Shown piece by piece: positions 5,266 through 34,300 of a DNA stretch of 64,000 bases; position 1 is the stretch's first letter, and every line of letters begins with the position of its first letter. The DNA comes from the human T2T-CHM13v2.0 reference genome, Homo sapiens. Below the pieces are notes generated by a model. The model had not been told where the DNA came from. It saw only the letters and a program-made list of their open reading frames with translations, and did no database searches. Made by a program: the position numbers and the translations under genes. The stretch lies in NCBI RefSeq assembly GCF_009914755.1, contig NC_060937.1; one strand, given 5' to 3'.

Positions 5266-6179
5266 ACACAAGGATGCAAACCAACCAAATAACCCACTGT
5301 GGGATCCCCTCCAGCGTCCTGCTGTGTTTCCCGCTGTCTTCCTCCACCCGTGAGTGCACCCACAGCAATAAAAGCCAGCGGTGTGGGTCTCACACGCATC
5401 TCCAGCCCCGTCGCCATCGCGCTGAGCTCGACTCTTTTTACAAAAGGCCACTTGACATCCTCACTTGGCAGTTCAAAAGCCCCTTCAACCAGATGTGCGC
5501 AAGCCAAGCTCCGCAACTTCCCGTTCAGAGCAGGTTCTCGGTCCACCTCTGCCTGAATGAACCGGCGGGCTACCAAGGCCGCAGTCTCTTCCTCAAGGGC
5601 TGTCCACACTGGGTCTCGCTTTCTCTTGGAAATTTCTCTCCCACCAGGGAACTTTCTCCTCCTCTACCTCCCTGAGTCTCAGTCTAACAGCACCCTGCGC
5701 CCAACCCCGAGGGCTGCAATAGCCTTCTTGCCTCTCCTGACTTATTCTGCGGACCCTGGGTTGGCGCTCCTTCACAGCCAGGCTGGTCGTTTCTGAAATG
5801 TTAACCCGCTGCCGGACACCGTTCCACGGTTTTCCGCTGCCTTGGAACAAGACCAGCTCCTGCGCGGACCCTGCCTCCACCTCGCACCACCTCCGGGCCT
5901 GGACTTGGCCTCCCGTCCATTCCCAGAATGTGCCGGGCTCCCTTCCAGTCCGGGCCTCAGCACACTCTCTTCACTCCCCTTCCTCCCTCCCTGCCTCTCC
6001 CAACCCGGTTCAGGATGACTAATTTCAAATGTTATGTTCCAGATTTCAGCCCAGATATCCCCGCTTTGGATGCTTTCCTTGACCATGCTCAGATCTAAGC
6101 TAATCGCATCTTGCTGTCAGCCGCTTTCAGGGCACCACACCTCATTGTGCTGACACTCAGAGGTCATTATGCAATTTTT

Positions 6180-6400
6180 TTTCCTCGATGATTAGATTAA
6201 TCAATCAACCACGGACGTCTAGAAATGGCGGCATCTCAGAAGGGCCCCCATTTGACTGGCAGGGGACTGGCCCAATGCGCCTCGCAAGCCCAGCCAGGCC
6301 CGCCCCAGCCGGCCCCCCTCTGACGACGCCTGTCCCTTACGCGACTGCCTTGCTGCCATATAAGAGGGACGGCGCTCGGCCTCCAGCAGTCGGCTTTCTG
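6180..6400 (+). promoter_or_regulatory. Promoter of PRR20 copy 2: DUX4-consensus site, YY1-like motif, CCAAT, GC box, TATA-like box
   Basis: TGATTAGATTA 6189-6199, AAATGGCGGC 6223-6232, CCAAT 6272-6276, CCCGCCCC ~6299-6306, TGACG 6321-6325, TATAAG 6359-6364. Canonical order in a CpG-rich region upstream of donor CAG|GTGTGT at 6571/6572. Confidence 0.75.
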
Positions 6401-6571
6401 CTGGGCTCGGAGCCAGAACCTGCTGCGTGCTCCCTCCAGACTCCCTGGCTGCGGGTGGACTACCTCAGAGCTACAGCGGTGAACCTGTGGACACCTCCGA
6501 CTCCTCGGGCCTCTCTTCGTCGAAGAGTCTCCTAATTTTCAGATCTCCGGAGCCAGCTGTGGGAAGATCAG
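6385..6571 (+). other. Probable non-coding first exon of copy 2 (intron 6572-6725 follows; exon 2 starts 6726); same in copies 3-5
   Basis: TSS inferred ~25-30 nt after TATA; donor at 6571/6572; polypyrimidine + CCCAG acceptor ending 6725. The window starts at the equivalent donor of copy 1. Confidence 0.6.
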
Positions 6572-10496: not shown

Positions 10497-12745
10497 TCAA
10501 AATGGAAAAAAGAGAGAGAGAAGTTATCCCAATAAGAAAGATAAAAGTTTTGAAGAGAAACTTCACAGAAGAATCTATGGGTTCGGTCAGTGAGCACACG
10601 AAATCCCAATAAGGATGAGAATATGCAAATAAGCATGGAGCATCCTGTGGTGCCAGGGAGAAAGGAGCCGCCCAAAACCAAACAAAGCCAAAAGCCACAG
10701 CGATGGGAGGTTGACAAAGGGACACGGAAGCCAACTAAAGGAGCTCCCGGTGGCCAAAGCTGGAAACATTGAGTAACAAAGTAATTAGCTAAATAATTAA
10801 TAATTAAATAGTTAAGTAAAATATTTGACAAAATAATTAGTTCAATTATTAAATAATTCATCCCCTGAAGTACTGGAGTGTAAACCAAAGCATACAATAG
10901 GTGTCCATAAGTCCATACGGATATAAATAAGTGATTAAATAAACAAACATGTGGGGGAGAATGGGAAAATCCTCCACACAGGAGAACTCCACAGAACTTA
11001 GGTAGCTATTCCCCTGCAAGGAGATAAAGCAAAACTTCCCTTTTCTTTACGTATAGGCTACAGGTAGCGACTTCCAGAAAGCACAGTAGAGAAAGAGGTG
11101 GGAAAATCACTTTATGGTGGAGAAACCTAATCAACACTGCCCCAGCCCGGTGACCAGGACTAATAGCAGCAGTGATAAGCCGGCTTGATGGTGTGTACTC
11201 TAGACAGGATGGGATGGGAATGGCGCTTTCCCGCTGCAATCTTCCTGACAAAAACATATAATTCCAGTCAGATCACAAGGAATACATCACACGAACTTCA
11301 GGAGAGGACATCCCACAATATATCTGATCAGTATTCAAAGTGTCAGGGTCATCAAAAACAAGGCAAGTGTGAGAAACCGTCGCAGCCAAGGGGAACCGTG
11401 ACGAGTTGTAAGGTGGTACCCTGGATGGGGTCTTGGGACAGAAAAGGTATGTGAGGTGAAAGCATAGCAAAACCTCACTTCAACAGGAAATACAACCCAA
11501 AAAAATCATTGGCCCGGCATGGTGGCTTGCGCCTGGGGTCCCAGCGACTCGGGAGGTTGAGCGGGACGGACGGCTTGAGCTCAGGCCTTCCAAACAAGCC
11601 TGGGCACATAGCGAAACCTCGTCTCTCCAAAAAAATCCGAAAATTATCCCGATGTGGTGGCGCTCACCTGTAGTCCAGCTACTCCGGAGGCCGAGACAGG
11701 AGAATCACTTGAACTGATTCTCCTATCTCAGCCCCCCCCCCCCCCCCCACCCCCAAGTAGCCGCAGCGAGCCGAGATGGCACCGCTGCACTCCAGCCTGG
11801 GCTACAGAGCGAGAACCCGTCTCTGTAAAAGACACAAGGATGCAAACCAACCAAATAACCCACTGTGGGATCCCCTCCAGCGTCCTGCTGTGTTTCCCGC
11901 TGTCTTCCTCCACCCGTGAGTGCACCCACAGCAATAAAAGCCAGCGGTGTGGGTCTCACACGCATCTCCAGCCCCGTCGCCATCGCGCTGAGCTCGACTC
12001 TTTTTACAAAAGGCCACTTGACATCCTCACTTGGCAGTTCAAAAGCCCCTTCAACCAGATGTGCGCAAGCCAAGCTCCGCAACTTCCCGTTCAGAGCAGG
12101 TTCTCGGTCCACCTCTGCCTGAATGAACCGGCGGGCTACCAAGGCCGCAGTCTCTTCCTCAAGGGCTGTCCACACTGGGTCTCGCTTTCTCTTGGAAATT
12201 CCTCTCCCACCAGGGAACTTTCTCCTCCTCTACCTCCCTGAGTCTCAGTCTAACAGCACCCTGCGCCCAACCCCGAGGGCTGCAATAGCCTTCTTGCCTC
12301 TCCTGACTTATTCTGCGGACCCTGGGTTGGCGCTCCTTCACAGCCAGGCTGGTCGTTTCTGAAATGTTAACCCGCTGCCGGACACCGTTCCACGGTTTTC
12401 CGCTGCCTTGGAACAAGACCAGCTCCTGCGCGGACCCTGCCTCCACCTCGCACCACCTCCGGGCCTGGACTTGGCCTCCCGTCCATTCCCAGAATGTGCC
12501 GGGCTCCCTTCCAGTCCGGGCCTCAGCACACTCTCTTCACTCCCCTTCCTCCCTCCCTGCCTCTCCCAACCCGGTTCAGGATGACTAATTTCAAATGTTA
12601 TGTTCCAGATTTCAGCCCAGATATCCCCGCTTTGGATGCTTTCCTTGACCATGCTCAGATCTAAGCTAATCGCATCTTGCTGTCAGCCGCTTTCAGGGCA
12701 CCACACCTCATTGTGCTGACACTCAGAGGTCATTATGCAATTTTT

Positions 12746-12966
12746 TTTCCTCGATGATTAGATTAATCAATCAACCACGGACGTCTAGAAATGGCGGCAT
12801 CTCAGAAGGGCCCCCATTTGACTGGCAGGGGACTGGCCCAATGCGCCTCGCAAGCCCAGCCAGGCCCGCCCCAGCCGGCCCCCCTCTGACGACGCCTGTC
12901 CCTTACGCGACTGCCTTGCTGCCATATAAGAGGGACGGCGCTCGGCCTCCAGCAGTCGGCTTTCTG
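12746..12966 (+). promoter_or_regulatory. Promoter of PRR20 copy 3
   Basis: Same motif set; DUX site at 12755, TATA at 12925. Confidence 0.75.
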
Positions 12967-19316: not shown

Positions 19317-19537
19317 TTTCCTCGATGATTAGATTAATCAATCAACCACGGACGTCTAGAAATGGCGGCATCTCAGAAGGGCCCCCATTTGACTGGCAGG
19401 GGACTGGCCCAATGCGCCTCGCAAGCCCAGCCAGGCCCGCCCCAGCCGGCCCCCCTCTGACGACGCCTGTCCCTTACGCGACTGCCTTGCTGCCATATAA
19501 GAGGGACGGCGCTCGGCCTCCAGCAGTCGGCTTTCTG
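19317..19537 (+). promoter_or_regulatory. Promoter of PRR20 copy 4
   Basis: Same motif set; DUX site at 19326, TATA at 19496. Confidence 0.75.
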
Positions 19538-25887: not shown

Positions 25888-26108
25888 TTTCCTCGATGAT
25901 TAGATTAATCAATCAACCACGGACGTCTAGAAATGGCGGCATCTCAGAAGGGCCCCCATTTGACTGGCAGGGGACTGGCCCAATGCGCCTCGCAAGCCCA
26001 GCCAGGCCCGCCCCAGCCGGCCCCCCTCTGACGACGCCTGTCCCTTACGCGACTGCCTTGCTGCCATATAAGAGGGACGGCGCTCGGCCTCCAGCAGTCG
26101 GCTTTCTG
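25888..26108 (+). promoter_or_regulatory. Promoter of PRR20 copy 5
   Basis: Same motif set; DUX site at 25897, TATA at 26067. Confidence 0.75.

Positions 26109-32292: not shown

Positions 32293-34300
<2,008 letters not shown>

What the first reader, a model, noticed from the sequence alone, without database searches (positions are those of the whole stretch)
6189..6207. Perfect DUX4 consensus site in a quasi-palindromic double-homeobox element in every complete PRR20 promoter
Seen: TGATTAGATTAATCAATCA, 160 bp upstream of TATAAG; also at 12755, 19326 and 25897. The first 11 nt are the reverse complement of TAATCTAATCA. It overlaps a second, oppositely oriented TAATCAATCA around the palindrome GATTAATC. 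Near-matches also occur at 6096 (TAAGCTAATCG), 298 (AAACTCAATCA) and 4552 (AAACCTAATCA). Known: TAATCTAATCA is the canonical DUX4 site, and DUX4 targets (PRAMEF, TRIM43, MBD3L2-5, RFPL4, ZSCAN4) are often multicopy zygotic-genome-activation genes. Inference: the PRR20 array may be a DUX/PRD-like homeobox target cluster overlooked because reads from near-identical copies multi-map.
Basis: partly seen in the sequence, partly recalled or inferred. Interest (0 to 1): 0.85.

Follow-up and report, generated by a model that had tools for sequence, protein, structure and literature searches.

The report
DUX4 binding site in PRR20 promoters
Each copy of the tandemly repeated human PRR20 gene has, just upstream of its TATA box, an exact match to the sequence that the embryonic activator DUX4 binds best, which probably explains why published data already show PRR20 switching on when DUX4 is expressed.

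Summary
TGATTAGATTAATCAATCA is present exactly at 6189, 12755, 19326 and 25897. A fifth copy lies in the PRR20A promoter just left of the window. Its first 11 nt are the reverse complement of TAATCTAATCA, the most active DUX4 motif in reporter and SELEX assays (PMC4730607).

The four window copies are one event copied by tandem duplication: three units differ at 7 of 6571 columns.

- PRR20D is named among the top DUX4-stimulated genes in a 2025 preprint.
- PRR20A/B/C (log2FC 3.65-3.79) and the paralog PRR20G (log2FC 9.27) are doxycycline-induced in DUX4-inducible myoblasts, in supplementary tables of PMC13224869.
- Four other supplements searched hold no PRR20, which fits the multi-mapping argument.

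I found no description of the site itself, and DUX4 occupancy is untested. The overlapping TAATCAATCA has 2-nt core spacing, on which DUX4 is inactive. PRR20G responds without a perfect site, so indirect induction is not excluded.

Verdict: a probable direct DUX4 target promoter, of modest novelty.

The parts
6189..6199 (-). Exact DUX4 'CT-flavour' 11-mer TAATCTAATCA in the PRR20B promoter; its flanks on the minus strand read GAT...TCG
   Evidence: activity of this 11-mer in PMC4730607
12755..12765 (-). The same 11-mer in the PRR20C promoter
19326..19336 (-). The same 11-mer in the PRR20D promoter
25897..25907 (-). The same 11-mer in the PRR20E promoter
6198..6208 (+). Overlapping TAATCAATCA, with homeodomain cores spaced by 2 nt, so not a DUX4 site. 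It contains ATCAATCAA (6200-6208), which matches the PBX1-type consensus. This half is conserved in the paralog PRR20G.
   Evidence: the spacing rule; the PBX1 oligo passage
6096..6106 (+). Near-match TAAGCTAATCG, with 2 mismatches to TAAYYBAATCA. The homologous PRR20G position reads TAATTAAATCA (1 mismatch).
6272..6276 (+). CCAAT box inside GGACTGGCCCAATG, which is 14 of 14 identical in PRR20G
6297..6306 (+). GC box (GGCCCGCCCC), a candidate SP/KLF site; PRR20G has CCCCGCCCC a few bases further on
   Evidence: that this is a KLF/SP motif type is recalled
6359..6364 (+). TATA box TATAAG; the wider TATAAGAGGGA is identical in PRR20G. The RefSeq exon 1 start (6358) lies 1 nt 5' of it.
   Evidence: hub annotation
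6358..6571 (+). PRR20B exon 1, as annotated
   Evidence: hub annotation; the exon sizes agree with PMC3018141

Best explanation
The 11-mer at 6189-6199, and its copies in all five PRR20 promoters, is a high-affinity DUX4 site (also bound by DUXA) that makes the PRR20 macrosatellite a direct DUX4 target.

Proposed mechanism. When DUX4 is present, its two homeodomains bind TAATCTAATCA on the minus strand, 160-170 bp upstream of a conserved CCAAT / GC-box / TATA core promoter. Settings with DUX4 are the cleavage embryo, testis, FSHD muscle and herpesvirus-infected trophoblast. DUX4's C-terminal activation domain then opens the otherwise silent array. Transcription starts from the TATA-containing core, probably helped by DUX4-induced KLF17/KLF18 acting at the GC box. 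DUXA, itself DUX4-induced, would later compete for the same site.

What is shown: the sequence, its position, its identity in all copies, the published activity of this 11-mer in isolation, and the published induction of PRR20 mRNAs on DUX4 expression.

What is inferred: occupancy of this site in chromatin, its necessity for induction, and the roles of KLF and DUXA here.
For: - The 11-mer is exact in 4 of 4 window promoters and 5 of 5 genomic promoters.
- In PMC4730607 the CT flavour was the most active of four flavours and the top SELEX motif. A single copy gave about 8-fold activation, and the reverse complement about 6-fold, so it is orientation-independent.
- An exact site this close to a promoter is rare: 2621 genome-wide.
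- The promoter is not a detectable repeat family. A 527-bp query found only 5 array copies plus PRR20G.
- PRR20D is among 30 prioritised genes drawn from those induced at log2FC > 4 by inducible DUX4 and by HSV-1/HCMV in trophoblast organoids.
- PRR20A/B/C have log2FC 3.65/3.78/3.79 plus versus minus doxycycline; for PRR20A that is 14, 12, 11 rising to 157, 160, 162 normalised counts (PMC13224869 Table S7).
- PRR20G goes from 0, 0, 0 to 138, 135, 138, log2FC 9.27, in MB135iDUX4 (Table S2).
- PRR20 is testis-expressed (PMC3018141).
- Analogy: the TAF11L macrosatellite, whose members are DUX4-induced, carries the identical 11-mer in the same orientation. It lies 71 bp upstream of a TATAAGG in 13 of 42 units.
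Against: - There is no binding evidence. The DUX4/DUXA ChIP-seq peak table from 293T cells in PMC10514451 has no PRR20-annotated peak, and its RNA-seq table has no PRR20 row. Identical units would defeat unique mapping, so this is weak evidence either way.
- PRR20 is absent from the supplements of PMC3836709, PMC7224571 and PMC8901440.
- PRR20A-E are absent from Table S2 of PMC13224869, where PRR20G sits directly between PRR19 and PRR22.
- In Table S7 doxycycline induces a KLF18 transgene as well as DUX4, so that induction is not attributable to DUX4 alone.
- PRR20G is induced about 600-fold, although its homologous element reads CAATCTAATCG (both end positions differ). It has no consensus site within 3.5 kb. 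The only consensus match within 10 kb either side is TAATTGAATCA, 5.36 kb upstream.
- PRR20G falls about 2-fold in both KLF18 knockouts (-1.03 and -0.93).
- Family induction therefore does not require the perfect site and may be partly indirect.
- Two of the six flanking positions are G, which SELEX disfavoured.
Confidence: 0.66

Rival explanations
1. PRR20 induction after DUX4 is indirect. It is driven by DUX4-induced factors such as KLF17/KLF18 at the GC box, or PRD-like homeodomain proteins, acting on the conserved core promoter. The perfect 11-mer contributes little.
For: - PRR20G is strongly induced without a perfect site.
- PRR20G drops about 2-fold in two KLF18 knockouts.
- In Table S4 PRR20G shows log2FC 4.87 and 4.41, with counts of about 5 against 0. 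The table header was not seen; these are presumably KLF17 and KLF18 overexpression versus GFP.
- The GC box, CCAAT box and TATA box are conserved between the paralogs.
Against: - KLF expression alone gives only about 5 counts, against about 137 with DUX4.
- The KLF18 ChIP table S3 has no PRR20 entry: files with occurrences were 1, 3, 5 and 6 only.
- The exact best-flavour site in a proximal promoter is improbable by chance and is active on its own in reporters.
Confidence: 0.18
2. The element is mainly a site for other homeodomain factors that set testis or basal expression: PBX/TALE-HOX at ATCAATCAA, paired-type dimers at the 2-nt-spaced cores, or DUXA. The DUX4 match is a lineage-specific by-product, for example of CpG decay.
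For: - The part shared with PRR20G is ATCAATCAACCA, while both ends of the DUX4 11-mer differ.
- ATCAATCAA lies within the PBX1 consensus oligo quoted in PMC3913655.
- The array's TG corresponds to CG in PRR20G, which is the direction expected of CpG deamination (inference).
- A duplicated CAATCA half-site created a DUX4-independent activator site in 293T cells.
- DUXA shares DUX4's sites.
Against: - This does not explain DUX4-dependent induction.
- It is compatible with, rather than exclusive of, DUX4 use of the adjoining 11-mer.
- No binding data for PBX or others were available.
Confidence: 0.1
3. The motif is a chance occurrence with no regulatory role, amplified five-fold only because the whole 6.57-kb unit was duplicated.
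For: - The copies are one event.
- About 3 promoters genome-wide would carry an exact site by chance (from; my arithmetic).
Against: - The gene is independently reported as DUX4-induced.
- The surrounding 30-bp windows (6166-6211) are among the best conserved of the promoter against PRR20G, at 27 of 30 against 72% overall.
Confidence: 0.06

Closest known systems
Canonical direct DUX4 target promoters (ZSCAN4, FRG2, TRIM43, MBD3L2, LEUTX)
   Same: A TAAYYBAATCA-type site lies within a few hundred bp of the start site. The gene is silent in somatic cells, testis- or embryo-restricted, multicopy and strongly induced by DUX4.
   Different: - PRR20 has a single perfect site per promoter, whereas ZSCAN4 and FRG2 are described as having multiple motifs.
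- No ChIP evidence exists for PRR20.
- Embryonic expression has not been documented.
- The copies are so alike that short reads cannot be placed.
TAF11L (TAF11-like) macrosatellite on chr5p15.1
   Same: - Both are testis-expressed coding macrosatellites described in the same 2010 paper.
- TAF11L members are DUX4-induced.
- TAF11L units carry the identical TGATTAGATTA on the gene strand upstream of a TATAAG-type box.
   Different: - Only 13 of 42 TAF11L units have the perfect site. A further 28 have TCATTAGATTG and 1 has TGATTAGATTG. In PRR20 it is 5 of 5.
- The distance to the TATA-like box is 71 bp in TAF11L against 170 bp in PRR20.
- TAF11L units diverge enough to be listed separately in RNA-seq tables.
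MaLR/ERVL LTR-derived DUX4-activated promoters
   Same: A DUX4 motif lies upstream of a TATA-containing promoter, with activation in testis and in DUX4-expressing cells (title and abstract of PMC3836709, listing).
   Different: The PRR20 promoter is not a dispersed repeat: a 527-bp query found 6 genomic matches only. Its motif is the CT flavour, not the MaLR flavour TAATTGAATCA.
Paralog PRR20G (chr3)
   Same: - The promoter is homologous at 72-74% identity.
- It has the same CCAAT / GC / TATA layout.
- It is DUX4-induced.
   Different: - The homologous element is CGATTAGATTGATCAATCA, with no perfect DUX4 site.
- It contains a perfect 12-bp palindrome, GATTGATCAATC.
- Its better near-site is at the position of the array's 6096 near-match.

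Membership tests
Direct DUX4 target gene | A consensus DUX4 motif (TAAYYBAATCA) in the proximal regulatory region | tested here: met
   TAATCTAATCA is exact 160-170 bp upstream of TATAAG in all copies. The consensus string itself is recalled; the CT flavour is documented.
Direct DUX4 target gene | mRNA induced when DUX4 is expressed | tested here: met
   This was a look-up in published tables, not my own analysis. PRR20D is among the top DUX4-stimulated genes. PRR20A/B/C have log2FC 3.65-3.79, with the caveat that doxycycline also induces KLF18 there. PRR20 is absent from four other supplements.
Direct DUX4 target gene | DUX4 occupancy at the site (ChIP-seq or CUT&Tag) | tested here: inconclusive
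   The 293T DUX4/DUXA peak table has no PRR20-annotated peak. However, the units differ at only 7 of 6571 columns, so uniquely mapped reads cannot report on them.
Direct DUX4 target gene | Induction is lost when the site is mutated, and is immediate-early (independent of new protein synthesis) | not testable with these tools
   This needs a reporter or genome edit and a cycloheximide time course.
Human ZGA / 8-cell-like-cell gene set | Transcript appears at the 4-8-cell stage or in 8C-like cells | tested here: inconclusive
   PRR20 is absent from the 4 supplementary files of PMC8901440. No main text links PRR20 to embryo expression: 16 papers hold both terms, 15 were listed, and none concerns cleavage-stage expression. 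Multi-mapping could hide it.
LTR (MaLR/ERVL)-derived DUX4 promoter | The promoter sequence is a copy of a dispersed retroelement | tested here: not met
   Window 6045-6571 matches only the 5 array copies and PRR20G in the whole assembly. The 19-mer has only 4 one-mismatch matches elsewhere. No RepeatMasker or Dfam was available, so an old, diverged origin is not excluded.
Double (two-site) DUX4 element | A second motif with the 3-nt core spacing that DUX4 needs | tested here: not met
   TAATCAATCA has 2-nt spacing. DUX4 had no activity on 2-nt-spaced cores or on motifs with one base more or less of spacing.
PBX/TALE site | An ATCAATCAA / TGATTGAT consensus | tested here: met
   The consensus is exact at 6200-6208 and conserved in PRR20G. 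It lies within the consensus oligo quoted. Binding was not testable.

The most novel reading that the evidence does not exclude
The PRR20 array may be a copy-number-variable (5-20 units), DUX4-driven effector cluster of the cleavage-stage and antiviral programme. On this reading its output scales with array length and has been systematically under-counted.

Its DUX4 responsiveness may have arisen twice in the family. Each paralog lineage would have turned a different ancestral ...ATCG near-site into ...ATCA by CpG decay: site 6189 in the chr13 array, and the 6096-equivalent in PRR20G.

Array length could then modify FSHD severity, herpesvirus restriction or early-embryo protein turnover.
Probability: 0.15. 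Interest if true: 0.6.

Novelty: new member of a known kind. Interest (0 to 1): 0.33.

Why it matters
DUX4 targets are used as FSHD biomarkers and define part of human zygotic genome activation. A target that is a polymorphic 5-20-copy array, and invisible to unique-mapping pipelines, would be missed or under-weighted in such signatures.

Pinning induction to one defined 11-mer gives a simple reporter. It also supplies a collapsed-unit target for re-analysing existing ChIP and RNA data.

The gain is incremental, however. PRR20D is already named as a DUX4-stimulated, herpesvirus-restricting gene, and the array's induction already sits in public tables.

Tried and rejected
- **Earlier findings.** The search of earlier findings was not open.
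- **Supplement searches for PRR20 that found nothing.**
  - PMC10514451, 2 files. A control search showed that ZSCAN4, TAF11L and PRAMEF2 are present there, while PRR19 and PRR22 are also absent, so the table is filtered.
  - PMC3836709, 7 files.
  - PMC8901440, 4 files.
  - PMC7224571, 4 files.
- **Embryo and 8CLC data.** bioRxiv supplements are closed, so the preprint's fold-change tables were not seen. The headers of Tables S4 and S6 of PMC13224869 were not seen, so those numbers are quoted without column names.
- **Primate conservation.** This could not be tested: no primate genomes are held. The only comparison was with the paralog PRR20G, which gives no polarity except the CpG argument.
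- **TE origin.** A dispersed-repeat origin was rejected, without RepeatMasker.
- **A second DUX4 site at TAATCAATCA.** Rejected on the spacing rule.
- **Tandem Repeats Finder.** With its 500-bp period limit it does not see the 6.57-kb array.
- **Literature searches on whether the site is in print.**
  - PRR20 + DUX4: 6 papers.
  - All PRR20 names: 79 papers, 40 listed.
  - PRR20G: 6 papers.
  - PRR20 + embryo: 16 papers.
  - TAF11L / DUX4 / macrosatellite: 424 papers, 25 listed.
  - Of the matches to these searches that I read as passages, none describes a DUX4 motif in the PRR20 promoter. The remaining hits were seen as search listings only.

Full report
**Observation**

The window sequence at 6189-6207 reads TGATTAGATTAATCAATCA. 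The 19-mer recurs exactly at 12755, 19326 and 25897. There is nothing else at up to 2 mismatches, and no match in 100 shuffles. On the minus strand 6189-6199 is TAATCTAATCA. The degenerate form TAAYYYAATCA is found only at these four places in the 64 kb (shuffle mean 0.35).

TAATCAATCA (6198), the palindrome GATTAATC (6195), CCAAT (6272), a GC box (CCGCCC at 6300) and TATAAG (6359) were located by script.

A whole-assembly search finds the 19-mer exactly five times, all in the chr13 array. The fifth is the PRR20A promoter just left of the window. The array ends at 32314, about 150 bp before a sixth site would lie, and runs into PRR20FP.

**How much is chance**

The copies are not independent. 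The segments from -250 to +400 around the four sites are identical, and three complete units differ at 7 of 6571 aligned columns. The question is therefore whether one exact 11-mer 160-170 bp upstream of a TATA box is surprising.

The assembly holds 2621 exact copies (1306 + 1315), against 1570 for the reversed control. By my arithmetic that is about 1.7e-4 per 200 bp, or roughly three promoters genome-wide by chance. The site is uncommon, but not decisive without other evidence.

**What the motif is**

Passages of PMC4730607 report the following:
- TAATCTAATCA was the most active of the four consensus flavours.
- It was the preferred sequence in two SELEX designs.
- A single copy gave about 8-fold activation, and the reverse complement about 6-fold.
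- Half-sites and motifs with one base more or less between the cores were inactive.
- G was disfavoured in the three flanking positions on each side.

The PRR20 site reads GAT-TAATCTAATCA-TCG, so two of its six flank positions are G.

Passages of PMC10514451 report that DUX4 has no activity on cores spaced by 2 nt; a 2X-TAATCAATCA reporter is among the constructs listed. They also report that DUXA binds many DUX4 sites and competes with DUX4. The overlapping TAATCAATCA is therefore not a second DUX4 site, and the 'double' reading of the element is not supported.

That half contains ATCAATCAA, which lies within the PBX1 consensus oligo quoted in PMC3913655.

**Promoter context and the paralog**

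A 527-bp promoter query matches only the five array copies and one locus on chr3 at 74% identity. I take this locus to be PRR20G. The promoter is thus not a dispersed repeat at this sensitivity.

In the alignment (72% identity overall), windows covering 6166-6211 score 27 of 30, among the best in the promoter. The others at that level include the CCAAT region and the exon 1 splice-donor region.

The PRR20G element reads CGATTAGATTGATCAATCA:
- The conserved core is ATTAGATT and ATCAATCAACCA.
- Both end positions of the DUX4 11-mer differ, giving CAATCTAATCG on the minus strand.
- PRR20G carries a perfect 12-bp palindrome, GATTGATCAATC.

Conversely, the array's near-match TAAGCTAATCG (6096) corresponds to TAATTAAATCA in PRR20G. 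In both places the poorer version ends in CG and the better one in CA or TG. This is the direction expected of CpG deamination. It is an inference and needs outgroups.

PRR20G has no consensus site in 3.5 kb. Within 10 kb either side it has only a MaLR-flavour TAATTGAATCA, 5357 bp upstream of its TATA box.

**Published expression evidence**

- PMC3018141 (passages) describes the 6.6-kb PRR20 macrosatellite. It has 5-20 copies, is expressed mainly in testis, and has orthologous arrays in great apes.
- The preprint 10.1101/2025.01.22.634317 (passages) started from genes induced at log2FC > 4 by inducible DUX4 and by HSV-1/HCMV in trophoblast organoids. It kept one ORF per group with more than 90% peptide identity and prioritised 30. 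It names PRR20D among ten genes that restricted both HCMV and HSV-1 on overexpression. Its supplements were closed.
- PMC13224869 supplements:
  - Table S2 (header seen; row). PRR20G has log2FC 9.27 for wild type plus versus minus doxycycline, with counts 0, 0, 0 rising to 138.0, 134.6, 137.7. In the two KLF18 knockouts it changes by -1.03 and -0.93. PRR20A-E are absent, since PRR20G sits between PRR19 and PRR22.
  - Table S7 (header seen; rows). PRR20A/B/C have log2FC 3.65/3.78/3.79 in the 'Long2' line. Doxycycline there induces both DUX4 and a KLF18 transgene.
  - Tables S4 and S6 also hold PRR20 rows, but I did not see their headers.
- PRR20 is not mentioned in that paper's main text, since it was not returned by the PRR20 + DUX4 search.

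**Evidence against, or missing**

PRR20 is absent from the supplements of PMC10514451, which hold an RNA-seq table and a DUX4/DUXA ChIP peak table from 293T cells. A control search showed that table is filtered. It is also absent from the supplements of PMC3836709, PMC8901440 and PMC7224571.

PMC6526621 calls PRR20C/D/E completely or nearly 100% camouflaged. This explains such absences but does not turn them into support.

No DUX4 occupancy data bear on the array.

PRR20G responds strongly without a perfect site and is partly KLF18-dependent. This shows that family induction does not need the 11-mer and may be partly indirect.

**An analogy found here**

The TAF11L macrosatellite on chr5 has members that are DUX4-induced. 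It carries the identical TGATTAGATTA on the gene strand, 71 bp upstream of a TATAAGG, in 13 of 42 units. A further 28 units read TCATTAGATTG and one reads TGATTAGATTG. This is a second coding macrosatellite with the same motif, orientation and TATA-proximal position.

**Verdict**

The most likely reading (about 0.66) is a direct, high-affinity DUX4/DUXA site. It would drive a conserved CCAAT / GC / TATA promoter in every PRR20 unit, with KLF17/18 as probable co-activators.

The rivals are:
- indirect induction (0.18);
- a primarily PBX or other homeodomain function (0.10);
- chance (0.06).

Target status is already in print at the level of gene lists. In what I could search or read, the cis-element, its uniformity across units, the paralog comparison and the TAF11L parallel are not. 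Interest is modest: it is a new, well-defined member of a known class. It has practical value for re-analysing multi-mapped data, and the array's copy-number polymorphism may matter.

Noticed in passing
L028 6013-6023 and 6084-6090; chr5:17.43-17.65 Mb of the same assembly: In the TAF11L macrosatellite, 13 of 42 units carry the same perfect TGATTAGATTA 71 bp upstream of a TATAAGG. A further 28 units have TCATTAGATTG and 1 has TGATTAGATTG, so units differ at exactly the two outer motif positions.
   Followed up: partly
L006 about 1835-1850 (chr3 paralog, minus strand): The PRR20G homolog of the element holds a perfect 12-bp palindrome, GATTGATCAATC, where the array has GATTAATCAATC.
   Followed up: no
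L030, chr3:130025905: The only consensus DUX4-type match within 10 kb either side of PRR20G is the MaLR-flavour TAATTGAATCA, 5357 bp upstream of its TATA box. Whether it lies in an LTR was not tested.
   Followed up: no
window 32300-32500: The array homology ends at 32314, inside the sequence upstream of the promoter, and is followed directly by PRR20FP. The last partial unit therefore has no promoter and no DUX4 site.
   Followed up: partly
window 9058, 11731, 12201: The only differences among three complete 6.57-kb units are two single-base variants and one 5-bp indel. The RefSeq 'silencer' at 11524-11812 spans the indel.
   Followed up: no
window 6358-6364: The RefSeq exon 1 start (6358) lies 1 nt 5' of the conserved TATAAG (6359-6364). 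The annotated 5' end therefore cannot be the TATA-directed start, which would be expected near 6390 (inference).
   Followed up: no
literature listing: PRR20A occurs 11 times in the preprint on proteome-scale induced-proximity screens for protein degraders and stabilizers (10.1101/2022.08.15.503206) and in a highlight of that work. These were seen as search listings only and not read. A protein-degradation role would be relevant to a cleavage-stage or antiviral function.
   Followed up: no
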